DNA from: an uncultured Planctomycetota bacterium
Lineage (GTDB): Bacteria; Planctomycetota; Planctomycetia; Isosphaerales; Isosphaeraceae
Direction: 5' to 3'
DNA: 64,000 nt
NCBI GenBank assembly: GCA_963845755.1
Contig: CAWJTV010000036.1
Coordinates: 128,001-192,000, forward strand
Below the pieces are notes generated by a model that saw only the letters and a list, made by a program, of their open reading frames with translations, was not told the origin of the DNA and ran no database searches. The translations under genes were made by a program, and so were the position numbers. How positions within the stretch are numbered: the first letter of the stretch is position 1; every line of letters begins with the position of its first letter. Positions 1 to 34,105 of this stretch are shown in pieces.

Positions 1-70
1 GGTCCTTGATTTCCTCCGGCGGCAGGTACCCGTGAAGTTCCTGGATCGATCGCAATTGGGGAATAAACAT
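1..70 (-). CDS. N-terminus of a NuoE/HoxE-like NAD(P)H-dependent oxidoreductase subunit (runs off the window)
   Basis: Reverse complement reads MFIPQLRSIQELHGYLPPEEIKD, matching the LxxIQxxxGYLP motif of NuoE-type N-termini. AGGA lies 6 nt upstream of the ATG. Too short for the ORF track. Confidence 0.6.
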   Translation of the reverse strand, partial: MFIPQLRSIQELHGYLPPEEIKD

Positions 71-473
71 CAGATTTCCTGCATGCGATTTGCCAGTGAT
101 GAAGGACCGTCTCCGCCGGGCCCGACCGTCGCGATGCCTCGATTCCTCGACCGGCGCGTGGACCTCGGGAGTTCCAAGCGTACGCCTCCGCGCCCTTCGG
201 GTCAACCGGCGGACGAGGTATGAGTCCATCCGCGCCCTGGGTCGAGAAAACCTGGCGATGCGCTCTCGGACCGCAGCTATCCTGATGTTTTTCGGGTATC
301 ATGAGAGGTGGGAGGTTTCCGAAACGTGGCCCACCCTGCGCCGCCGCTATCCTCATGTCTCGGCGTGAGATGGAGACTCCCTCGCCCTGGTGTCGGCGTA
401 ACCTTTTACCTCGGATTAACTGGAAGAAGCGGTCCTGGAGCGGGCGTCGGGGAACGCCAAGAGGGAGGCGGGC

Positions 474-1946
474 GTGAACAGTGCGAGGTTGGAAGGGCTG
501 ATTCGAATGATGCGACCCTGCCGGGCCGCGGTGATCGGCGACGTGATGCTCGACCGTTACGTCCAGGGGAACGCCGATCGGATCAGCCCCGAGGCGCCGA
601 TTCCGATCCTCGATGTCATGGGCGAGTACCAGATGCTCGGCGGCGCGGCGAATGTGACGATGAAAGTCGCGGAGTTGGGATCGAGCGCCGTATGGTCGGC
701 CTGGTTGGGGTTGATCCGCCCGCCGCCGAACTGCGGGCACTCCTGGCCGGGCAACCCGAGATCACCGATAGCCTGGTCTCCGATTCCGGCCGGCTCACCA
801 CGGTCAAGACGCGATTCATGGCCCACAACCAGCAGCTCCTGCGGGCGGATCGCGAGATCCGACGCCCGCCGGCAGGCGAGACCCTCCACCAGATCGCGCA
901 GACCGCAAGGGCCGCGGCGGCCGCGGCCGATGCCGTGATTCTGGTCGACTACGGCAAAGGAGTGCTGTGCTCCGAGGTCATATCCGCCGCGCTCGAGGGT
1001 GCCGGATCGAGCGGCGCCCTGGTAGTCGTGGATCCCCATGGACTCGACTACACCCGCTATGCCGGGGCGACCGTGCTGACGCCCAATTTGAAGGAGGTGG
1101 AACTCGCCAGCCAGCGGCCGATCAACGACCTGACCAGCCTGGAAGACGCTGCGCAATGGCTCGTCGATCAGAGCAACGCGGCCATCGCCGTGACGCGAGG
1201 ACCTGACGGAATCTCGCTGTTCCGCCGCGGAGGTCCCGGCGAACCGGTCACCCATACGCCCTTACCGACCTGGCCGATCGCGGTACACGACGTCACGGGG
1301 GCCGGCGATGCGGTGACGGCGGTCATCGCCATCGCCTTGGCGTCCGGGATCGACATGGCCGATGCCTGTAGCCTGGCGAACCTCGCGGGCGGGAGTGTGG
1401 TCGGTCAGTTGGGCGTTGGCACCCTCTCGATCGCCCACCTTCTGGCCGAGTCGCGACGGGAGTCGCTCGATCCGGGACTCAAGGTCGTGGACATCGCCCG
1501 GGCTTGCCAGAGCGACACGCAGGATCCGCGAGACCGGCGGCCGAGTTGTGTTTACCAACGGGTGCTTCGATATCCTCCACCAGGGCCACATGAATCTCCT
1601 CCGGTTCGCGCGAGGACAGGGCGACATCCTCATCCTGGGGCTCAACAGCGATGCATCGGTGAAGCGGCACAAGGGCCCGAGCCGACCCTACGTGCCGGAG
1701 GCGCAGCGATCTTACATGCTGTCACTCTATCCGTTCGTCAACCTGATCGTCCCCTTCGAAGACGACACTCCGATGAGCATTATCGAAGCGATTCGACCGG
1801 ACGTGCTGGTCAAAGGGGGCGACTACACCCCGGAGACGGTCGTGGGCCGCACCCTCGTCGAGTCGTACGGCGGCGAGGTGGTCATCTGCCCGCGATTGGA
1901 AGGGCTCAGTACAACTGCCCTCCTGCGAAGAATGACGGCCCCTTAG
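474..1946 (+). CDS. hldE: Bifunctional heptose-7-phosphate kinase / heptose-1-phosphate adenylyltransferase (two apparent frameshifts, ~685 and ~1510)
   Basis: Stitched from three frames: VIGDVMLDRY...RISPEAPIP...LGGAANV; VDYGKG, LTPNLKE, DVTGAGD (PfkB-type kinase); VVFTNGCFDILHQGH, LGLNSDASV, LVKGGDY, GLSTT (cytidylyltransferase-like). Confidence 0.93.
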
Positions 1947-2066
1947 CGATCCAGGGATTGCCTTCGCCGCCCGGCCGACCGCGATCCAGCCTTCAATCGC
2001 CCTCGATGAGTCCGCGCGGGGAACGCGATCGATCGATCGCCCAACGGAACCGCCGGCGCCCGGAAG

Positions 2067-2294
2067 CTATCGGTCGGGCTTCTGATCCGAGCTCATGGCA
2101 TCAACAAGGCTTTTCGGTCGCATATCGGTCCAGTTGGACTCGATCCAGTCGAGACATTCCTGGCGCGAGCACACGGGAAGGACAACCGTCCAACCCGAGG
2201 GTGCCGGCCGGAAGGACGGCCACAAGGAGTACTGGTTCTCTTCGTTGACCAGGACAACGTACTGGCCACCGTCATCTTCGAATGGATTTGTCAT
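2067..2294 (-). CDS. mbtH: MbtH-like NRPS accessory protein
   Basis: MTNPFED...[13 protein letters not shown]...PSGW...[17 protein letters not shown] is the canonical MbtH signature. Confidence 0.97.
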
Positions 2295-2303
2295 GGTGTC
2301 CTT

Positions 2304-3034
2304 TCAGTCGGTAGGGATGGGGCCGATCGGATTGGCGCGCATTCGAATCGCTACCCCGCACGGGATAGACGAAATGCCCTTCGAACAATTGATCAACCTT
2401 GATCTTGACGCCAGGGACCGTGTATCGGATCGCGAGGCCGAGCCGCCGCTTGGTCGACGAATTCCGCGGTGAATGATGCAGGATATTCTCGTGGAACAGG
2501 ATGAACTGTCCTGCGCAGCTCGATCTGTCGGGCCCTGGCTTTATCCATCGTCGAGATCTCTGCGTGTGCATTGAACTCGTCGGATCGTGAACGCGGGACG
2601 TGCGAAACATAATGGAGGTGGCTCTCTGGCACGACTTGCAGGCCACCGTTGCTGGCATCGGCATCGTCGATCGCCAGCCAGACGGCGACGTTGACCACCG
2701 GCTCCATCATCACGAAGCTTCGATCCTGATGCCAGGGAATCTCGCTCCCGCCGGGCTCCTTGTTGAAGAAGACCGAATTCCACAGGACGACGTCCGGCCC
2801 GACGAGTGAGGAGACTCGGTCCACGATCGCCGGGCTCGCGCAGATGTCATAGATAATCCGGCAATCCTGGTGGCGCGATCCCCACCGGTCGCCCCCGTGC
2901 GGTCCGGCCTTGCGGTCCAGCGTGTCACCGATGGCCTGACGCAACGCCCCCATCTCCTCGGAAGAGCAAAACTCCAGGGGAGCGAGATAACCCTCTCGTT
3001 CGTAGCGCTCTCGTTCCTCATCGGTCAGATGCAT
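2304..3034 (-). CDS. PhyH-family Fe(II)/2-oxoglutarate dioxygenase (frameshift ~2510, 3' end uncertain)
   Basis: GGAGG then MHLTDEERERYEREGYL; FFNKEPG, IPWHQD, VAVWLAIDDA...NGGLQVVPESH; continues in another frame as AGQFILFHENILHHSPRNSSTKRRLGLAIRY. Confidence 0.88.
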
Positions 3035-3146
3035 GCGTGGCCTCCACGGGCGCTGATGGGCGGATGCCCGCTCCGGAAAGTTGACCCACTCGTCCCGTCC
3101 TGTCTCGCTTCGGCTCGAGGCGTTACGTCTCGATCGGCGCAGCGGA

Positions 3147-4295
3147 TCAGGATCCCATCTTGAAGAGGTCGAGGGCGGTCTTGCCGACGATCTTCTGAGC
3201 ATTCTCGACGCTAGTTGCCTCGAATACCGCCGCGATGGCGCTCCGGGTATAGCCCAGCGTGCTCTCGAGATGCGGATAGTCCGACGACCACATCACCCGG
3301 TCCGCGCCGATGCGATGCAGCAGCTCCAACCCCGTCGGGTCGGTCATGAAGGTCGCGTAGCAATGATTGAACCAGTACCAACTGGGCGGATGGGCCAGCT
3401 TCGGTTGGAGTTGGCTCTGAAACGAATGATAGATCATGTCGGCGTCATGGACGGCGCTGGCGACCCAACTGATGCCACCTTCGAGGAAGACAACCCGCAG
3501 TCCGGGATGACGGTCGAAGACGCCGCCGAACGCCAGGGCTCCCCATGACGGCCGAAAACCCTGCATCTGGCTCAGGACCGACGCACCGATGGCACCCGGG
3601 AGCTGGGTCGGCGTGCTTTCACCGATGTGGAAACTCAAGGGTAGCCCCGACTCCTCGACGGCCGCCCAGAACGGTTCCATCTTGGGGCTCGCCCAGTAGA
3701 TCTGCTCGCCGTCGATGTCCTTGCGCGGATGGATCGGCACCATCACTGTCCGAGCGCCGAGGGCCAGGATCTCCTGGAGCGACTCGCGCGTTGCGGCCGG
3801 ATTCCAATAATTCGGGATGGCCACGAAGAACAGGCGGTCCGGCGCCTGGGAACAAACCTCGGACATGTACTGATTGTACGCGCCGAAGATCCATTCCCGC
3901 AGATCCAGGTCGCCGGCGATGTACAGCCCGAAGAGCCGCTGGGGAAACAAGAGCTCCTTCTCGATGCCTTCCAGGTCCATATCCCTGACCCGATCGGGGA
4001 CGTTACTCATCCCATCGAGGCATTCGAAGGCACTACAGAGCACCTTGGCCTCCTCGGTGGATGGCGGCTTCTCGCCGTTGACGACGATCTGCCAGCCGCC
4101 CCCTTCGAAGAGCATGCGCGGCGCACGGTCCTTGAGGTGTTCGGGAAACCGGTCGATCCAGAGATCGCCTTCGAGCCAATGACTGTCGGCGGATACGATG
4201 GTGGTCCCCGGCGGCCAGGTTGCGCCGGCGGTCTGGGGCCGCCTCTGCGTCGGGACGGCAATCTCATTCATCTCGGGGATTTCCAGTACAGACAC
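3147..4295 (-). CDS. Amidohydrolase-2 family metal-dependent hydrolase
   Basis: IVSADSHWLE, LPLSFHIGE, GVFDRHPGLRVVFLEGGISW, RVMWSSDYPH motifs; intact 382 aa. Confidence 0.9.
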   Translation of the reverse strand: MSVLEIPEMNEIAVPTQRRPQTAGATWPPGTTIVSADSHWLEGDLWIDRFPEHLKDRAPRMLFEGGGWQIVVNGEKPPSTEEAKVLCSAFECLDGMSNVPDRVRDMDLEGIEKELLFPQRLFGLYIAGDLDLREWIFGAYNQYMSEVCSQAPDRLFFVAIPNYWNPAATRESLQEILALGARTVMVPIHPRKDIDGEQIYWASPKMEPFWAAVEESGLPLSFHIGESTPTQLPGAIGASVLSQMQGFRPSWGALAFGGVFDRHPGLRVVFLEGGISWVASAVHDADMIYHSFQSQLQPKLAHPPSWYWFNHCYATFMTDPTGLELLHRIGADRVMWSSDYPHLESTLGYTRSAIAAVFEATSVENAQKIVGKTALDLFKMGS

Positions 4296-4554
4296 GGGGA
4301 ACCCTCCTGTTCAAAAGATGGTTTTTTGGAAATCAGTTTACTCATCCGGCATTTGACCCCGCAAGGCGAGGCTCGCTCGAAACCCCCCTGCCGGATGGGC
4401 CCCAGGCCGCGTCCGTCGCGTGTAGCCGCGACGAGCAAAGGCATGATACAATCAACCCCGAAAGCACCTGACCTCTCGAATTGGACGTCCACGATGTCGG
4501 TTACGGTGGCGTTCCCGAGGCTCCTGGCGCACACAGGATTGAGGGTTAAGCAGA

Positions 4555-4797
4555 ATGTACACATATATTCCTGTGTCCTTGGTTCAGGAACGGATGGCGA
4601 TCTGCAAGTCCAGGCTCGACGAGATCGGCCGGGCGCTCGGCTCCGAGCTGGAGAAGCCCATGCACCGGAGGAATCCCCTGGTGCTGACGTTCCTGGAGTC
4701 CCAGAGGCAGAAGTTCGACTTTTCCATGGCGACATTGTCCGAACTCCTCGACGCCGCCGGCGAGGCAGGCCCATCGATCGGGACCCGCCCCGAGTAA
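4555..4797 (+). CDS. Small hypothetical helical protein (80 aa)
   Basis: Natural-looking composition, GAGGG upstream, co-oriented with and 59 nt before the GT9 gene. No recognised motif. Confidence 0.45.
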   Translation: MYTYIPVSLVQERMAICKSRLDEIGRALGSELEKPMHRRNPLVLTFLESQRQKFDFSMATLSELLDAAGEAGPSIGTRPE

Positions 4798-4856
4798 GAT
4801 TCGCCCACAGGCGGTCCGGCTCCCCGGCTCCCCGCCGCAACCCTCCAGGTTCCAAG

Positions 4857-5729
4857 ATGCCCGATGTCGTTCGAATCCTGGCATTCGGTGGGATCGGAGA
4901 TGCGATCCTGCTGACGCCCTCCCTGCGAGCGTTGGCCACCTCCGATCCGGGGCGAAGGATCGTCGTCTGGACGGAAAACCCCGGCCATAAGGCGGTATTC
5001 AAGGATAATCCGTTCATTTCAACGTTCCGATATATAGGGAGAATTGCCAAGCGACTCTATCACGCAGCCGGCGGGCCGCGGTGGTTGCCCTACGTGTACA
5101 CGGACTACAGTCGCACCATCCCCAGCCTGCTCTACTCGAAACCGGCGTCCCACATCATCGCCGAGATCCTGAACACGTCCGTGCAGGGCCAGGCGCCGGA
5201 GCTCTTCCTCTCCGCCGCCGAGAACTCAGCGGCCTCCGGGCGGGTCGAGGGATTCAAGCGACCGCTCATCGCGATTCACGTGCAGGCCGCCTCGTCTCCG
5301 AACAAGCATTGGGACCTCGCAAACTGGGAAAACCTCGTCTCTCGAAATCCGAATCTGACTTTTGTACAACTGGGTAGCCGGAGCGAACCCACCATTCGTG
5401 GAGCTCGTGGGCTCAAGGGAATCGGGCTGCGTGAGACCTTTGCAACGATCGAGCATTGTGACGCGTTCGTCGGCGTGGATTCCGGCCTGGGACATGCCGC
5501 CACCGCCCTGAACACGCCGGCGGTGATCCTCTTCGGCGCAACCACCCCGATCATCTGGGGCCACGAGAGGAACGCGAATCTGTATCGGAGTCGATACTGT
5601 TCGCCCTGCATCGATCTCATCCAGTCGTCGCCTTGTCCTTTCTCTGTCGCCTGCATGAGCGCCATATCCGTGCAAGACGTCGAGGAAGCCTTGTGGAACC
5701 AGCTACGCCCACGCGGAACTGTATTGTGA
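4857..5729 (+). CDS. Glycosyltransferase family 9 (ADP-heptose heptosyltransferase-like)
   Basis: FGGIGDAILLTPSLRAL, PNKHW, FVGVDSGLGHAATALNTPAVILFGATTP, C-terminal CSPC...C...CM. True start is the ATG at 4857 inside ORF 3729..5729. Confidence 0.9.
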   Translation: MPDVVRILAFGGIGDAILLTPSLRALATSDPGRRIVVWTENPGHKAVFKDNPFISTFRYIGRIAKRLYHAAGGPRWLPYVYTDYSRTIPSLLYSKPASHIIAEILNTSVQGQAPELFLSAAENSAASGRVEGFKRPLIAIHVQAASSPNKHWDLANWENLVSRNPNLTFVQLGSRSEPTIRGARGLKGIGLRETFATIEHCDAFVGVDSGLGHAATALNTPAVILFGATTPIIWGHERNANLYRSRYCSPCIDLIQSSPCPFSVACMSAISVQDVEEALWNQLRPRGTVL

Positions 5730-5786
5730 AAACACAATGATATCTATAAAAATATCATAAAAATTATTTTTAAATCAAATTAACTT

Positions 5787-7898
5787 TCAGTTTTGTCCGC
5801 TCATTTCTCCACCGGCGGGATTCCCGGACGCTCGTAGCGTATGGATTTCACCATGGATGGGGACCAGGCCGCCGATCCGGGCGGCCTCCAGGTCATCCGC
5901 GAGCTGTTCCTTCCAGGTCGCTAGGTCCCATTCGGGCGTCGGCCAGTCGATCTCGACGGAGTTGATGCCGGCACGGAGTACCTCCGCGGGCGCCACCAGC
6001 CCGGCCGTCGTCCAGGAGTTCGAGGTGGGTAGGCTCCCGATTGGAAGCTCATTCACCCGGACGACGATCGGCTGACCGCCGGAATGGCGGGTCCGATAGG
6101 TGAGAGTCAACCGGACCGGGAGGGGGCGATTGCAAACGAGGCGAAATTCCGACCTGCGATGATCGGCGCGATAGTAGGCATACTCGGATTCGTCCGGCGA
6201 GACATGGTATGACCTGGCCGAATACGACTTGCTCAGCAGGTCAACGTCTCGCTCATCGACGCCGTGTTCCCTCGCGAGGTGCGACTCGGTCCTCGACCGG
6301 AGGTGAGGATGCTGTCGGTCGATCGCACCCAGGACTTGCTCGACGAGGGGCGGGTTCAGGAACTTGTCCGGAGTTGGACGAGTGGGATCGAACAGTAGGC
6401 TGATCACGGAGGGGTTTTGAAGCTGGCACATCTCATCAAACGATTTGCAAAGTGCCGTCGGGATGCGCCTCATGTGAAAATCCAGGAACAAGGTCATCAT
6501 GCGATCCACGGCCGGCGAGAGTTCCACGGCCTTCTGGCAATGGTAGCGAACGATCTCGGGCCCCTGTCCCCAGTTGCCATTGTGGATGGCCGCGAGAAAG
6601 TGGGCCTCGCCCTCGATCCTCCGGTCAACCGGGAGTTTGACCCGGTTGATCTCGCGGATCGGGCGATGGATCCTGAACAATGACGCGAGGACGACCTGGG
6701 CGACGGCGGCCATCGCCACATGCGTACCTTCGACGGTGAAATGACAATAATCCATGAACATGCGGCGGTCGGGCAGGCCGTTTTGCCAATGGTCCTGGAA
6801 GATGCGCGGGAGGTTGACGAGGGCGAACCGGTTCTTGGCGGATTCGTCGCGGATCGTCTCCTGGATGACCGAGTAACAACGAGGGGACTCCGGACCTCGC
6901 GGCCAGCAGATGCCCGAGTCGCGGGCCACTTCCAGGTGCTTCCTGGCCTCCGCCGTGGCGCCCGCTCGCAGTTTGCTGTCGGCGATGATGTTGGAGCCGG
7001 CGGCGGTCGTCCCCCGATCGAGCGCGAGCAACTCAAGGCCCAGCGCCTCCGCATCTTTCAGGGCTCCAGCTGCCAGTGCCGTCTCCGCGGCCAGGCGCTG
7101 GGAATGCCATCGGGCCATCGCCGGAGGCGTCAGGAGCGGAGGATCGATCGCGTCCGTGCGCCAGTCCACGAGATTGAACTCGGGGAGCACGAAAACCATC
7201 GGGAAGCGATGGGCCTGTGCGATCCGGGCGAGCCCGGCAATCACCGAGAGTACGCGCGATCGTAGCAGCTCCTCGAGATATCGCTTCACGTCCGCCCAAC
7301 CACCCTCTCGCAGTCTGGCGGCCATGTCGTGAAACTCGTGAGGCGTCAATTCGTTCATGGGCTGCCAGTTGTTCCCGGCCAGGACCACGACCACGTCGGG
7401 GTTCAGTTGGACTGCCGCGGCGGCCAACTGCTGCAGGGGCCCGAGAAGCAGATCCGTCCGGGCGAGATCGACGACTTCAAGTTCGCGATCGCCGCTCATC
7501 TCCCGAAGGGCGTTCTGGAGGACTTTCGCGGGGTTGAACTGGGGATCGAAGAAGAAGCCACGGGCCACCGACTCGCCCAGGAGCAGGATGCGCTTCCGCC
7601 GGCCCTTGGGTTCGATGACGCGGAGGTTGGCCCAGAGGGTTGGCGGCTCCGTCGGCTCCGGGGCTCGGACGAAACGATACTCCGCGCCCTGGAGTCTGGG
7701 CTCCCAGATCCCGATCCGGCGCGGCTGATCGACCCGGGCGACCCGGTCGTCCGGTGCGCCCGTCGGATCGAGATCGTCGGCCGAGACGCGGAGGAGTTGC
7801 TTGAACAGCCCGAAGAGCCGAACGCCCTCCCCGGAAGCCATGGAGGATTCGGCCAACGAGCCGGCTGCATCCTTGAGTCGCTGTGATAGATATTTCAT
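5787..7898 (-). CDS. SGNH/GDSL-like hydrolase or acyltransferase with helical (TPR-like) insert, 703 aa
   Basis: RILLLGESVARG (GDS-like block I), VVVLAGNN (block III), FMDYCHF (DxxH block V). Starts 7 nt after the carbamoyltransferase stop. Confidence 0.65.
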   Translation of the reverse strand: MKYLSQRLKDAAGSLAESSMASGEGVRLFGLFKQLLRVSADDLDPTGAPDDRVARVDQPRRIGIWEPRLQGAEYRFVRAPEPTEPPTLWANLRVIEPKGRRKRILLLGESVARGFFFDPQFNPAKVLQNALREMSGDRELEVVDLARTDLLLGPLQQLAAAAVQLNPDVVVVLAGNNWQPMNELTPHEFHDMAARLREGGWADVKRYLEELLRSRVLSVIAGLARIAQAHRFPMVFVLPEFNLVDWRTDAIDPPLLTPPAMARWHSQRLAAETALAAGALKDAEALGLELLALDRGTTAAGSNIIADSKLRAGATAEARKHLEVARDSGICWPRGPESPRCYSVIQETIRDESAKNRFALVNLPRIFQDHWQNGLPDRRMFMDYCHFTVEGTHVAMAAVAQVVLASLFRIHRPIREINRVKLPVDRRIEGEAHFLAAIHNGNWGQGPEIVRYHCQKAVELSPAVDRMMTLFLDFHMRRIPTALCKSFDEMCQLQNPSVISLLFDPTRPTPDKFLNPPLVEQVLGAIDRQHPHLRSRTESHLAREHGVDERDVDLLSKSYSARSYHVSPDESEYAYYRADHRRSEFRLVCNRPLPVRLTLTYRTRHSGGQPIVVRVNELPIGSLPTSNSWTTAGLVAPAEVLRAGINSVEIDWPTPEWDLATWKEQLADDLEAARIGGLVPIHGEIHTLRASGNPAGGEMSGQN

Positions 7899-7905
7899 CG
7901 TGTCC

Positions 7906-9666
7906 TCACAGGAGGGTGTATGTGCGATGACCCACCGCGGACCGGGCGGGCGCGGCCATGCTTCCGAGCAGGAGTTGGCAGGCCGGGCCGAGGGCCGATC
8001 GATGGACCGCGAAATCCTCCAGGATCAGGAGATCGATTTCCGATCGAATAAATGATATGATTGCATCGATTGGACTACAAACGATGGGCTCGCCCTTCAT
8101 GTTGAATGACGTATTGAGGAGTATCGGGCATCCGGTACGCTTGGCGAAGGCCCGAAGCAACCCGGCGAACCGGGGGTTATTCGCGTCATTAACCGTCTGG
8201 ACTCGAGCAGAACCATCGACGTGTGTGATGGCCGGTAAGGAAATCGTCGAACGGACCGGGCAGGTCTCGGTCATGAACCGGGAGGGATGGTCCATGTCGA
8301 AGTGTCCGGCGGCCTGGTCTTCCAGCACCGCCGGGGCGAAAGGACGAAACGCCTCGCGTTTCTTCACCAGGGCATTTATCCGATCGCGCATGGTCGGATT
8401 TCGCGGGTCCGCCAGGATGGAGCGGGAACCCAGGGCCCTCGGGCCGAATTCCATTCTTCCTTGAAACCACCCTGCGACCTGGCCTTCGGACAACCGCTCG
8501 GCGACCCATGCCAGCAGGTCCGGTTCGCGGCCTCGAAAGTCCAGATGATCCAGGCCGGCGGACTCGAGCAGGTTGGCGATTTCGGCGGTGCTATAGCCAG
8601 GCCCGAGATAAACATGTTCCATGCTTTGGCGACGCACGCCGGGACGTCCCAGGTTTCCGGCGGCAAGGGCTGCGGCACCGAGACAGCCCCCGGCGTCGCC
8701 GGCAGCCGGCTGGACAAACAAGCGACGAAAGGGGCCTTCGCTGAGAATCCGGCGATTGGCGACGCAATTCAGGGCAACCCCGCCGGCCATGCACAGATTC
8801 AAGGAGCCCGTCTCCGTATGCAGGTACGTGGCCTTCTCGAGGAGGATCTCCTCCAGCACGACTTGCAAGCTCCTGGCGATATCCTTGTGATGATCTCGAA
8901 TTTCGTCATCGGGTTTTCGCTGCGGGTGCCCGAACAGGGCGATCATCTCCTCCGTGTGCATCTGGTCGGGTGAGTTGAAGTCGAAGTATTGGAGATTCAA
9001 GCGGTACTGTCCCCTCGAAAGGTTCGTGATCAGTGCCGAGACCTGGTCCCGGTAGAGGGGCTTACCGTACGGCGCCAGGCCCATGACCTTGTATTCGCCT
9101 TCATTAACCTCGAAGCCGAGATAGCCGGTGATGGCGCTATAGAGCAATCCTAGCGAATTGGGAAAGTCCACCGATTCGAATAGCTCCAGATCATCGCGAT
9201 AACCACGACCGTACGTGGTGGTTTCCCATTCCCCAACGCCGTCCGCGGTCAAGATCGCGGCGTCGTCAAATCCGGAAAAAAAGTATGCACTTGCGGCGTG
9301 GGATTGGTGGTGCCCGAAGTATTGGATGGGCCCTTCGTAGCCCAGCCGCTCGCGAATCTCCGCTTCTGGGCGCAGGGCATTGAGACGTGAAAGTGTCTCG
9401 AAATCGTGCGGCAAGCCCGACATCATCATGCAGATCTGTCGCGCGAGCTTCCGGGCCGGTTGTTCGTAGAAGGCCAACACATCGATGTCCTGAATTCGGA
9501 CTCCACCCGCCTGAAGACAATAATTGAAGGCCGATCGCGGAATCGCCGGATCGTGCTTTCTTCGAGAGAACCGTTCCTCCTCGGCGGCGGCCACGAGGAC
9601 GCCGTCCTGTAGCAGGCAGCAGGCGGAATCGTGGTAATGAGCGGATATTCCAATGACGTTGGTCAT
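7906..9666 (-). CDS. O-carbamoyltransferase (NodU/CmcH/TobZ family)
   Basis: [104 protein letters not shown]. In frame with the upstream NRPS TE in this assembly. Confidence 0.95.
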
Positions 9667-32469
<22,803 letters not shown>

Positions 32470-32947
32470 ACTCCGTCCCACGTTCGACGATCTCGGATTA
32501 TCCGACCGCGACCGATCCGGTAGCGGTCAAGGTCTGTATCGTGGGCTTACGCCACATCAGAAGTTGACAAGGAGTTTTCATGAGTTTAAAGCGTGTTCCG
32601 CCGTGGTCACTGGATTGCTTCCTCCCCTCGCGACCGATTTCGTCGGGCCGGTATCCTTGCCCCTACAGAAGACGAAGAAAATGACGATACCGTGCGCACG
32701 GGCTCCGTCTTCGAGTTGATCGCGGATCGCTTACCCGATGATCTCAGGCTGTCCAATCAACCCACTCCCTCGCAGTCCGAGCACGCCGCCTCGATCTCGA
32801 CGTTGCGCCTGAAGGCTGTCCTGGTCGACCTCGTCTTACCGTCGTTCGATGCGCCGCCGGTGCACAACACGTTCGATATCGCCGCCTTCGGCGATTCCGC
32901 GCACGGTTCTCGGCGCGCCAGATGGGGGCCTCATGTTGCTGCGGCGA

Positions 32948-34105
32948 TCAAGCCCAATATGACACTCTCCGGCCCCATCGTCGCAGCGTGTCGCGCAGTC
33001 GTTCCTGGGCCGTCCATAACGATCGGCGCATCGCCGATCCGTTGGGTGGCCGGCTGTAAAAGCCGGACAGTCCGCCGTCGAGGAAGTCTTCCGCTTCGAC
33101 GATGCCACGTGGGTAGGTGCCGGCATCGGGTGGCCGGGTCATCATATGGCATTCTGCGGCCAGGCTCCGCATGGCACGGTACTTGGCCTGGGTGCTGTTG
33201 TACTTCTGCTGGGACGCGGAGAGCAGGTGCTTGGCAGCGGCCCGGCAGGCGTCCGCGCGAACCGGGTCGCGTGTACCGGCCAGGATATTCTGAACATGTT
33301 GGTCGAGATGCACGGTGCGTAGCATCGCTTTTGCATCCGGGTCCGTGATACCACCGAACCGGAAAATCACGGAGAGCGAGGGATCCAGATAGTCGAAGTG
33401 ATGCCAGATGAAGGCGGGCATGAAGACGGCCTCGCCGGGAAGGAGCGTGTGCTCCACACCGCCGGCGAAGGTCACGAAGGTGTCCCGCTCTGCCTCGCTC
33501 ATCCCGGCAAATCGCACGGTGGAGAAATTGGCGATCGGGTGGAGGTACGGCGCCGCCTCGGGGGGAAACAGGATGACCCGCTTGCGCCCGAATCCCTGGA
33601 AGAGGAGCACATCCCGGCCGTCCCCATCTGCATGCATGTCGGACGAGTTACCGCGGTTCGCGGCGAAGATCAGAGAATACGAAGTCGTTGGGGGGACCTC
33701 CGCGAATGGCGCGGGGTTGCCGGCGATCAAGGTGTCGATGCCGAGCACGTTGAGGTCGAGATCCTTGAGCAGGCCCTCCGGCGTCGGCTCCTCGCTGACC
33801 ACGCAGCGGGTATCGGGATCGCGAGCGACCAGATCGAGATACTCGGCAAAGGTGCCGCTGGTCTTGCCGAGCTTCGGCGGCATCCGAACGCCTCGGAGAT
33901 ATCGGCGGATCCTCTCCAGATGGCCGTCGATGTAGTTGAGGCTAATCGTGATTTTCATTTCACCCAGCAGCGCGCACGCGCCCTGCTGATCGGTGATTCG
34001 CTCGATAGACCGACCGCGGAAGAGATCGGTTATGATCGCCGGTCGTGCCTGCCGGATCATTTCTGGGAGGTGGGCGGCAGGAATTCGCTCGAGTGTCTTC
34101 TTCAT
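32948..34105 (-). CDS. JmjC/cupin-8-like Fe(II)/2OG oxygenase
   Basis: SDMHAD (HxD), QGFGRKRVILFPP, TLLPGEAVFMPAFIWHHFDY. Co-oriented upstream of the NRPS. Confidence 0.85.
   Translation of the reverse strand: MKKTLERIPAAHLPEMIRQARPAIITDLFRGRSIERITDQQGACALLGEMKITISLNYIDGHLERIRRYLRGVRMPPKLGKTSGTFAEYLDLVARDPDTRCVVSEEPTPEGLLKDLDLNVLGIDTLIAGNPAPFAEVPPTTSYSLIFAANRGNSSDMHADGDGRDVLLFQGFGRKRVILFPPEAAPYLHPIANFSTVRFAGMSEAERDTFVTFAGGVEHTLLPGEAVFMPAFIWHHFDYLDPSLSVIFRFGGITDPDAKAMLRTVHLDQHVQNILAGTRDPVRADACRAAAKHLLSASQQKYNSTQAKYRAMRSLAAECHMMTRPPDAGTYPRGIVEAEDFLDGGLSGFYSRPPNGSAMRRSLWTAQERLRDTLRRWGRRVSYWA

What the first reader, a model, noticed from the sequence alone, without database searches (positions are those of the whole stretch)
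474..34105. Candidate pathway for a heptosylated, carbamoylated non-ribosomal peptide in a probable planctomycete
Seen: a six-module NRPS with MbtH, two Fe/2OG oxygenases, an amidohydrolase, a carbamoyltransferase and an SGNH-like protein. A GT9 gene lies between the SGNH gene and the amidohydrolase-PhyH-mbtH genes, and hldE abuts mbtH. No other LPS-core gene (gmhA, gmhB, hldD, waa) is in the window. Known: HldE makes ADP-heptose and GT9 enzymes transfer it. Heptose natural products I know of (septacidin, spicamycin, hygromycin B) are not heptosylated linear NRPS peptides, and planctomycete NRPS products are poorly characterised. Inference: LPS heptose machinery has been recruited to glycosylate a peptide, possibly on an oxygenase-installed hydroxyl, with carbamoylation of the sugar or peptide.
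Basis: partly seen in the sequence, partly recalled or inferred. Interest (0 to 1): 0.88.

Follow-up and report, generated by a model that had tools for sequence, protein, structure and literature searches.

The report
Peptide cluster with heptose-attaching enzymes
An uncultured planctomycete carries an assembly line for a six-residue peptide next to an enzyme that activates a seven-carbon cell-wall sugar and one that attaches such sugars; these two genes appear to travel together in related clusters, so the product probably carries a heptose, a decoration I found no report of for this kind of peptide and that nobody has tested.

Summary
Window 474-34105 in an Isosphaeraceae MAG holds a six-module NRPS (A-T / C-A-T-E x3 / C-A-T / C-A-T-TE), MbtH, a carbamoyltransferase-SGNH pair, GT9 and hldE. 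There are three oxygenases, because the 'amidohydrolase' has PtmU3-type dinuclear-oxygenase motifs.

This hldE is one of three copies and is not syntenic in relatives. The GT9 keeps the WaaC catalytic and heptose-binding residues but is not WaaC/WaaF. It belongs to a clade lying next to NRPS/PKS genes in 7 of 20 fetched loci.

Against: co-location rests on contig lengths, not DNA, and an NRPS on those contigs is not shown. 0 of 20 clade loci carry hldE (1 carries gmhA). Bleomycin has a similar synthase/GT/carbamoyltransferase set yet carries hexoses. The carbamoyl group more likely sits on the peptide than on the sugar.

Best reading: an O-heptosylated, hydroxylated, carbamoylated, probably cyclic hexapeptide (about 0.55). 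Untested.

The parts
474..1946 (+). hldE, bifunctional heptose-7-P kinase / heptose-1-P adenylyltransferase; two frame breaks (near 700 and 1514), probably assembly errors
   Evidence: TIGR02198 219 bits (partial piece) and TIGR02199 177 bits (cut-off 181.5); only PDB hit at E<=1e-10 is HldA 4e84; 74-79% to intact P0176 in three pieces; breaks absent in P0172
2067..2294 (-). mbtH, 75 aa
   Evidence: PF03621 91.5 bits
2272..3034 (-). PhyH-family Fe/2OG oxygenase, SyrB2/CytC3-like but with H-Q-D, so a hydroxylase rather than a halogenase (motif rule recalled); one frame break near 2500
   Evidence: break spanned with 2 extra letters by X4 record 28
3147..4295 (-). Amidohydrolase-related dinuclear oxygenase (ARO, PtmU3-like), not a hydrolase
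   Evidence: best PDB hit PtmU3, E 3e-39; D-S-H and D-Y-P-H-L-E motifs match the ARO definition (PMC13154177)
4555..4797 (+). short ORF matching the N-terminal extension fused to GT9 in P0008/P0009; a separate ORF or a frameshifted N-terminus
   Evidence: tblastn E 4e-7 and 2e-6; alignment A1; translation
4857..5729 (+). GT9 glycosyltransferase (290 aa) of a biosynthetic-cluster-associated clade; D15, K150 and D208-S-G-x-x-H213 correspond to WaaC D13, K192, D261, H266
5787..7898 (-). SGNH/GDSL-TPR-CBM-like protein (G-E-S110, D383-Y-C-H386), regular partner of this carbamoyltransferase type
   Evidence: model pLDDT 63; SGNH hits weak, best E 9e-4
7906..9666 (-). NodU/CmcH-family carbamoyltransferase; in frame with the TE (one ORF, 7906-11115)
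   Evidence: Pfam Carbam_trans_N and _C; GdmN, NovN, TobZ hits; junction
9667..32469 (-). Six-module NRPS, A-T / C-A-T-E / C-A-T-E / C-A-T-E / C-A-T / C-A-T-TE. Pockets: DILQLGLIWK, DAATIAAVCK, DAWQFGLIQK, DGSTISGVCK, DPENLGIVNK, DAATIAAVCK
   Evidence: substrate calls (Gly, Phe/Tyr, Gln-like, aromatic-type, Orn/Arg-like, Phe/Tyr) rest on recalled specificity codes
32948..34105 (-). JmjC/cupin-8 Fe/2OG hydroxylase (H-A-D...H), FIH/JMJD5-like
   Evidence: not found in 120 family relatives at E<=1e-10

Best explanation
This is one biosynthetic cluster for a glycosylated non-ribosomal hexapeptide. The NRPS (with MbtH) joins Gly, D-Phe/Tyr, D-Glx-like, a D-aromatic-type residue, L-Orn/Arg-like and L-Phe/Tyr, and the TE releases it, probably as a ring (inferred). 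Three oxygenases (PhyH-type, ARO, JmjC) add hydroxyls. The CarbT-SGNH pair adds a carbamoyl, more likely on an amino-acid hydroxyl or amine than on the sugar. [quoted passage not shown] The GT9 moves the heptose onto a peptide hydroxyl (a Tyr phenol or an oxygenase-made beta-OH). Shown: gene identities, motifs, copy numbers, trees. Indirect: co-location in other contigs. Inferred: substrates, donor, acceptor, order of steps.
For: (1) The genome has two other hldE copies (C28, C39), both above the TIGR02199 cut-off. (2) The window HldE forms a 95/95 clade with P0175, P0176 and P0181; grouping with the same-genus G446 copy is rejected (p-AU 5e-67; 22 rows, LG+G4; the test was set after seeing the quick tree). 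(3) P0176 and GT9 P0001 share contig length 32150; P0181, GT9 P0003 and ARO P0293 share 18219; GT9 P0002 and ARO P0415 share 11797; GT9 P0005 and ARO P0295 share 24358. Two GT9-HldE matches above 10 kb arose in 0 of 20000 jittered draws (24 x 119 lengths). (4) The trees agree: P0001+P0003 are sisters (97, quick tree) and so are P0176+P0181 (100/99). (5) mbtH lies inside the hldE-to-GT9 block, at the end of an ARO-PhyH-mbtH run on one strand. (6) GT9-clade loci: 7 of 20 carry NRPS/PKS/TE domains and 8 more carry accessory markers; no LPS-core family appeared among the 108 neighbouring ORFs scanned. L070 has a gmhA-like gene inside its NRPS cluster (181 bits, cut-off 209). (7) The heptosyltransferase signature and K192 equivalent are kept, and the top fold matches are GT9 3tov, WaaF, WaaC and TibC. 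(8) The clade was not found in 120 family relatives (best other hit E 1e-44 against own 1e-135) nor in 400 class genomes at E<=1e-48.
Against: (1) Co-location rests on equal contig lengths; no accessions or DNA were available, and an NRPS on those contigs is not shown. The three hldE+GT9 cases are kin, so they count as one recruitment event. (2) 0 of 20 clade loci (193 kb; 7 of them under 5.3 kb) carry hldE, gmhB or hldD. G523 has a clade GT9 but no TIGR02199 match (a MAG, completeness not given). (3) K150 and D208 vary in the wider clade (K in 89 of 141, D in 103 of 141). (4) hldE and GT9 are on separate transcripts from the NRPS. (5) Bleomycin uses a sugar synthase similar to heptose adenylyltransferase, a GT and a carbamoyltransferase to build a mannose-gulose disaccharide. 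(6) The GmhA/GmhB candidates score below cut-off and lie on other contigs, the clearest in a GDP-heptose-type locus. (7) This hldE type is native to the family (about 25 relatives at 54-66%), often behind an hldD-like epimerase, and in G411 beside sister-group GT9s and GT2s, so surface-glycan ancestry is recent. (8) Frameshifts leave intactness of the NRPS unproven.
Confidence: 0.55

Rival explanations
1. The GT9 glycosylates the peptide, but with a hexose or other non-heptose sugar. hldE is either retuned, as BlmC-type enzymes appear to be, or a flanking passenger.
For: 0 of 20 clade loci carry hldE; several carry other sugar genes (aminotransferase, reductase, epimerase, GT4). Bleomycin precedent. 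Donor-site residues vary across the clade.
Against: The window HldE is 54-66% identical to family HldEs that mostly follow an hldD-like gene and keeps the HldA kinase motifs. The window's subclade keeps D/K/D/H in 6 of 6 closest homologues. hldE co-diverges with GT9.
Confidence: 0.2
2. HldE and GT9 add heptose to the cell envelope (LPS or a surface glycan), for example as self-protection against the peptide, and the peptide itself is not glycosylated.
For: Separate transcription units. Sister-group GT9s in relatives lie in surface-glycan loci, once beside this hldE type (L160, L161). GT9s are classically LPS enzymes.
Against: The clade sits in many different NRPS/PKS clusters across phyla, often mid-operon among tailoring genes. 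It scores far below the WaaC/WaaF/WaaQ cut-offs. The genome has other GT9s.
Confidence: 0.13
3. Two unrelated units sit side by side (an hldE-oxygenase-GT9 block and an NRPS-CarbT-SGNH block), or the cluster is decayed and makes nothing.
For: CarbT-SGNH moves on its own. At least 10 frame changes in the NRPS. The PhyH break is shared by two assemblies. The first module begins with a C-A linker remnant.
Against: mbtH is in the left block. L074 joins a clade GT9 with NRPS/PKS, CarbT and SGNH. The hldE breaks differ between assemblies and one contig closes the PhyH break. Catalytic motifs are intact in all modules, and a ribosome-binding site precedes the NRPS start.
Confidence: 0.12

Closest known systems
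Bleomycin/tallysomycin/zorbamycin clusters (BlmC, BlmD, BlmE, BlmG)
   Same: An NRPS cluster with a sugar synthase similar to heptose-1-P adenylyltransferase (48% similarity reported in the cacaoidin preprint passage), a glycosyltransferase and a carbamoyltransferase (passages of PMC11611020 and PMC7017467). That BlmE is RfaF/GT9-like and BlmC full-length HldE-like is recalled, not tested.
   Different: Bleomycin sugars are mannose and gulose with the carbamoyl on the sugar, on an NRPS-PKS hybrid. Here the NRPS is pure with three E domains, the CarbT is of the SGNH-paired type, no epimerase is present and the HldE is close to family housekeeping enzymes.
Septacidin/spicamycin and hygromycin B
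   Same: ADP-heptose from sedoheptulose-7-P is recruited into secondary metabolism (PMC9978623 passages).
   Different: The acceptor is adenine N6 (septacidin) or an aminocyclitol (hygromycin B, recalled), not an NRPS peptide; septacidin clusters carry their own heptose-tailoring enzymes.
Mannopeptimycins
   Same: Glycosylated peptide with O-glycosylated Tyr (96 passages); cyclic hexapeptide with beta-hydroxy basic residues (recalled).
   Different: The sugar is mannose, added by MppH/MppI, and the residue order differs (recalled); no GT9 or HldE.
GT9 heptosyltransferases WaaC/WaaF and TibC/Aah
   Same: GT-B fold and D13/K192/D261/H266 equivalents; TibC shows that a GT9 can heptosylate a polypeptide hydroxyl (titles).
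   Different: 14-18% identity, all models far below cut-off, 290 aa, four conserved C-terminal Cys, located in biosynthetic clusters.
Streptomyces epimerase-NodU-GT-SIS-hldE cassette (L164, L165)
   Same: hldE and a carbamoyltransferase in one locus, with GT9s in L164.
   Different: No NRPS in the stretches shown; the one GT9 compared scores 22.7 bits against the window's, and its CarbT is 39% identical against 57% for the SGNH-paired type.
PtmU3/LynB7 amidohydrolase-related dinuclear oxygenases
   Same: D-x-H and D-x-P-H-x-E motifs.
   Different: Substrate unknown; no Rieske partner seen in the cluster.

Membership tests
Multimodular NRPS | Ordered C-A-T modules with intact core motifs and a TE | tested here: met
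Multimodular NRPS | Intact open reading frame | tested here: inconclusive
   at least 10 frame changes; reads were laid only on 1-10400
HldE (bifunctional) | PfkB heptose kinase fused to a cytidylyltransferase-like domain, with motifs | tested here: met
   read in pieces, 74-79% to intact P0176
HldE (bifunctional) | Curated NCBIfam cut-offs | tested here: inconclusive
   219 of 345 bits (truncated piece) and 177 of 181.5 bits
GT9 (PF01075) | Pfam score above gathering threshold and GT-B fold | tested here: met
   62.9 bits against 22; fold
Heptosyltransferase signature | D13, K192 and D(T/S)(G/A)xxH | tested here: met
   D15, K150, DSGLGH; the E222 equivalent was not assigned
WaaC / WaaF / WaaQ (LPS core) | TIGR02193 / TIGR02195 / TIGR02201 cut-offs and waa gene context | tested here: not met
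   43/185, 35/135 and 31/170 bits; separate clade from the genome's other GT9s
TibC/Aah (BAHT) | TIGR04414 cut-off | tested here: not met
   18.8 of 200 bits
Heptosyltransferase (activity) | Uses ADP-heptose as donor | not testable with these tools
   needs an assay
ARO dinuclear oxygenases | N-terminal D-x-H and C-terminal D-x-P-H-x-D/E on a PF04909 fold | tested here: met
NodU/CmcH carbamoyltransferase | Carbam_trans_N plus Carbam_trans_C | tested here: met
SGNH hydrolase | Block I Ser and block V D-x-x-H on an SGNH fold | tested here: inconclusive
   motifs invariant in 3 of 3 aligned; no Pfam hit; weak fold hits; Atlas leads at 0.84-0.86
Bleomycin-family cluster | Hybrid NRPS-PKS with Cy/Ox domains and a sugar epimerase | tested here: not met
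   no KS or epimerase among the window ORFs scanned, and three E domains present
Bleomycin-family cluster | Orthology to BlmC/BlmE/BlmD | not testable with these tools
   sequences and primary papers were not held

The most novel reading that the evidence does not exclude
A previously undescribed clade of GT9 enzymes (136 clusters at 50% identity scoring 200 bits or more) has left envelope synthesis to tailor NRPS/PKS products across phyla. Heptose-supply genes were recruited into such clusters at least twice (hldE here, gmhA in L070). The window would then encode an O-heptosylated, carbamoylated cyclic hexapeptide, a new class of heptose-bearing natural product, from a phylum with almost no characterised NRPS products.
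Probability: 0.4. Interest if true: 0.82.

Novelty: new variant of a known kind. Interest (0 to 1): 0.64.

Why it matters
Heptose natural products in the paper I could read are nucleoside-type (PMC9978623 passages), and my searches found no heptosylated NRPS peptide. A GT9 clade tied to biosynthetic clusters would be a new genome-mining marker and a source of small-molecule heptosyltransferases. It would also show an LPS-core sugar being turned to secondary metabolism in a Gram-negative lineage. The few characterised planctomycete metabolites listed in PMC12673574 (passages) are N-acyl tyrosines, carotenoids, a chlorinated fatty acid and an aryl halide. The central claim is directly testable with two small enzymes.

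Tried and rejected
Genome searches for a second copy of the whole cluster found none: SGNH query, 1 strong hit (G294) in 400 phylum genomes; GT9 profile, 0 of 120 family, 0 of 400 class and only the centre genome among 401 Acidobacteriota-centred genomes; JmjC 0 of 120; ARO 0 of 5 (no positive control). DNA synteny with same-genus G446 showed only paralogous DUF1549/DUF1501-region hits. Plasmid search with the GT9 gave two weak hits at 26%. Sequencing runs: 4 holders with small shares and no RNA holder listed; coverage was patchy, so only one break (PhyH) could be read off, and the two gaps in X2 record 9 across hldE were not placed. Cluster look-ups of NRPS, MbtH and JmjC gave no members on the four shared contigs; 4 of 10 queries were not in the collection and one of these (4593-4790) was off-frame. 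Promoter/terminator scan was at chance level. The first HldE tree did not finish its careful search and dropped the C39 copy for length; it was redone on 22 chosen rows without the mixture model. The GT9 tree is a quick tree with long outgroup branches. The M4 GC3 value was off-frame and was ignored. Earlier-findings look-ups by sequence, place and full word set were empty. Rejected readings: halogenase for PhyH (H-Q-D), hydrolase for the PF04909 protein, lipopeptide (no starter C), housekeeping hldE, WaaC/WaaF orthology, descent from the Streptomyces hldE-NodU cassette. Literature: ten searches. Those aimed at heptosylated NRPS products listed none; I saw listings and abstract openings, plus passages of 12 papers, and no supplements. 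The Nat Prod Rep 2021 review on heptose natural products, the PNAS 2018 septacidin paper and the primary bleomycin papers were not readable, so absence from print is not established.
Full report
Setting. The window is G000:C36:128001-192000 of a 14.3 Mb MAG, 87.9% complete. DUF1549/DUF1553/DUF1501 genes and HldE homologues named Isosphaeraceae or Aquisphaera point to Isosphaeraceae; this is an inference. The assembly has many single-base frame breaks.

What is there. Motif mapping gives six A, six T, five C, three E and one TE in the order A-T / C-A-T-E / C-A-T-E / C-A-T-E / C-A-T / C-A-T-TE. The three T domains before E carry GGDS, the others GGHS. The pockets read DILQLGLIWK, DAATIAAVCK, DAWQFGLIQK, DGSTISGVCK, DPENLGIVNK and DAATIAAVCK. 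By recalled codes these are Gly, Phe/Tyr, Gln-like, aromatic-type, Orn/Arg-like and Phe/Tyr. There is no starter C domain. Two long internal repeats (3.85 kb at 97.5%, 4.27 kb at 94.5%) mean the module count depends on this assembly; their 81 and 208 mismatches argue against simple duplication by the assembler.

Frameshifts. A second assembly of a near-identical sequence reads through both hldE breaks and has others of its own (P0172; likewise P0004 for GT9). It shares the PhyH break, but a 151-letter contig of run X4 covers that spot with no mismatch and two extra letters. Assembly error is the likeliest cause; the NRPS itself was not checked against reads.

Three oxygenases, not two. The PF04909 protein's best solved relative is PtmU3. 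It has the D-x-H and D-x-P-H-x-E motifs that PMC13154177 (passages) gives as defining dinuclear oxygenases and absent from characterised hydrolases of the fold; LynB7 is an NRPS-cluster example (PMC10127204 passages). The PhyH protein resembles SyrB2/CytC3 but has H-Q-D. The JmjC protein resembles FIH/JMJD5.

Is hldE part of the cluster? The genome has three hldE genes. The window's type occurs in about 25 of 120 relatives at 54-66%, often behind an hldD-like epimerase. None of 29 relative loci (about 1.5 kb flanks) hit the window's upstream oxidoreductase, mbtH, PhyH or ARO; one had a distant GT9. G000 has no hldD orthologue. The window HldE groups (95/95) with P0175, P0176 and P0181, and holding it with the same-genus copy is rejected. 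P0176 and P0181 have the same longest-contig lengths as GT9 homologues P0001 (32150) and P0003 (18219), and ARO P0293 also has 18219. GT9 P0002 and P0005 match AROs P0415 (11797) and P0295 (24358). In 20000 jittered draws two GT9-HldE matches above 10 kb never arose and two matches of any size arose in 0.5%. The paired proteins are sisters in both trees. So hldE, ARO and GT9 appear to move as a block, with mbtH inside it in the window. Limits: no DNA of those contigs was seen, an NRPS there is not shown, and the cases are related.

What is the GT9? It passes PF01075 but fails all LPS-core and TibC models. Its model (pLDDT 85.5) matches 3tov, WaaF, WaaC and TibC at 14-18% identity. It keeps the equivalents of WaaC D13, K192, D261 and H266, the residues named in PMC3559599 and PMC5713226 (passages). 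It belongs to a clade apart from the genome's other GT9s and from a sister group in relatives' surface-glycan loci. Of 20 loci fetched for the clade, 7 hold NRPS/PKS/TE domains (L068, L069, L070, L071, L074, L081, L082). Eight more hold accessory markers such as a PPTase, carbamoyltransferase, halogenase-like protein or EryCIII-type GT, some of them weak; 5 are uninformative. L069/L081 and L064/L075 are near-duplicates. Four have an adjacent carbamoyltransferase, and L074 has NRPS/PKS, CarbT and SGNH as here. For heptose genes the count is hldE 0 of 20, gmhB 0, hldD 0 and gmhA-like 1 (L070, between a thioesterase and an NRPS gene). In G521 the hldE hit is on another contig, and G523 gave none.

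Carbamoylation. The CarbT-SGNH pair recurs in L074, in G294 beside a C39 exporter with no NRPS or GT9 in the roughly 69 kb fetched, and on a Streptomyces plasmid in an NRPS cluster with no listed GT (57% identity; that gene table is incomplete). The pair therefore does not need a sugar, which favours a carbamoyl on the peptide. One speculation: the altered Gln-like pocket of module 3 could load a carbamoylated Gln isostere.

Comparison. This is a glycosylated-NRPS cluster, a known kind. Septacidin shows ADP-heptose recruited to a natural product. Bleomycin shows a heptose-adenylyltransferase-like synthase, a GT and a carbamoyltransferase serving hexoses (further family assignments recalled). 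Streptomyces plasmids carry hldE-NodU-GT cassettes without an NRPS, unrelated at the GT9 compared. Searches listed no heptosylated NRPS peptide and no report of this GT9 clade, but the main review could not be read.

Verdict. I put the GT9 acting on the peptide at about 0.75 and heptose as its sugar at about 0.73 of that, giving about 0.55. The rivals are a non-heptose sugar (0.2), envelope modification (0.13), and juxtaposition or decay (0.12). It is a new variant of a known kind; interest 0.64.

Noticed in passing
   Followed up: partly
window 10621-14465 vs 27591-31434; 14902-19155 vs 24103-28355: Near-identical repeats inside the NRPS (97.5% and 94.5%) suggest recent module duplication or conversion, with the pocket halves of A3 and A5 swapped into shared frames.
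   Followed up: partly
window 7906-11115 (-): TE and carbamoyltransferase are in one open frame with no clear ribosome-binding site before the internal ATG: a possible NRPS-CarbT fusion, or a lost stop.
   Followed up: partly
window 5787-9666; L074:17372-20840; L059/L060; L163:18153-22013: A conserved carbamoyltransferase + SGNH-TPR-CBM gene pair recurs in unrelated NRPS and exporter loci; one paper search found no description. It may be an uncharacterised carbamoyl relay.
   Followed up: partly
G000:C20:398971-399549: The best gmhA-like gene of the genome lies inside a hydrogenase-maturation (hyp) operon.
   Followed up: no
G000:C24:91747-94537: A GDP-heptose-type run (HddA-like kinase, nucleotidyltransferase, GmhA-like, GmhB-like; by eye and TIGR hits) in a polysaccharide locus; a second carbamoyltransferase lies about 20 kb away.
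   Followed up: partly
L069 and L081: An Acidobacteriota NRPS cluster with a clade GT9 followed by aminotransferase III, aldo-keto reductase, CmcI-type methyltransferase, GT4 and deacetylase: a candidate amino-sugar tailoring pathway.
   Followed up: partly
L164:4027-18338; L165:6213-13401: Streptomyces plasmids carry an epimerase-carbamoyltransferase-GT-SIS-hldE cassette without an NRPS, in organisms that have no LPS.
   Followed up: partly
L066: A clade GT9 beside a lantibiotic-dehydratase N-terminal domain and a flavin halogenase-like protein, so the clade may also serve RiPP clusters.
   Followed up: no
window 1-298 and G000:C36 upstream: The cluster's left edge abuts a divergent NuoEF/formate-dehydrogenase-like operon and multiheme cytochrome genes (by eye).
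   Followed up: no
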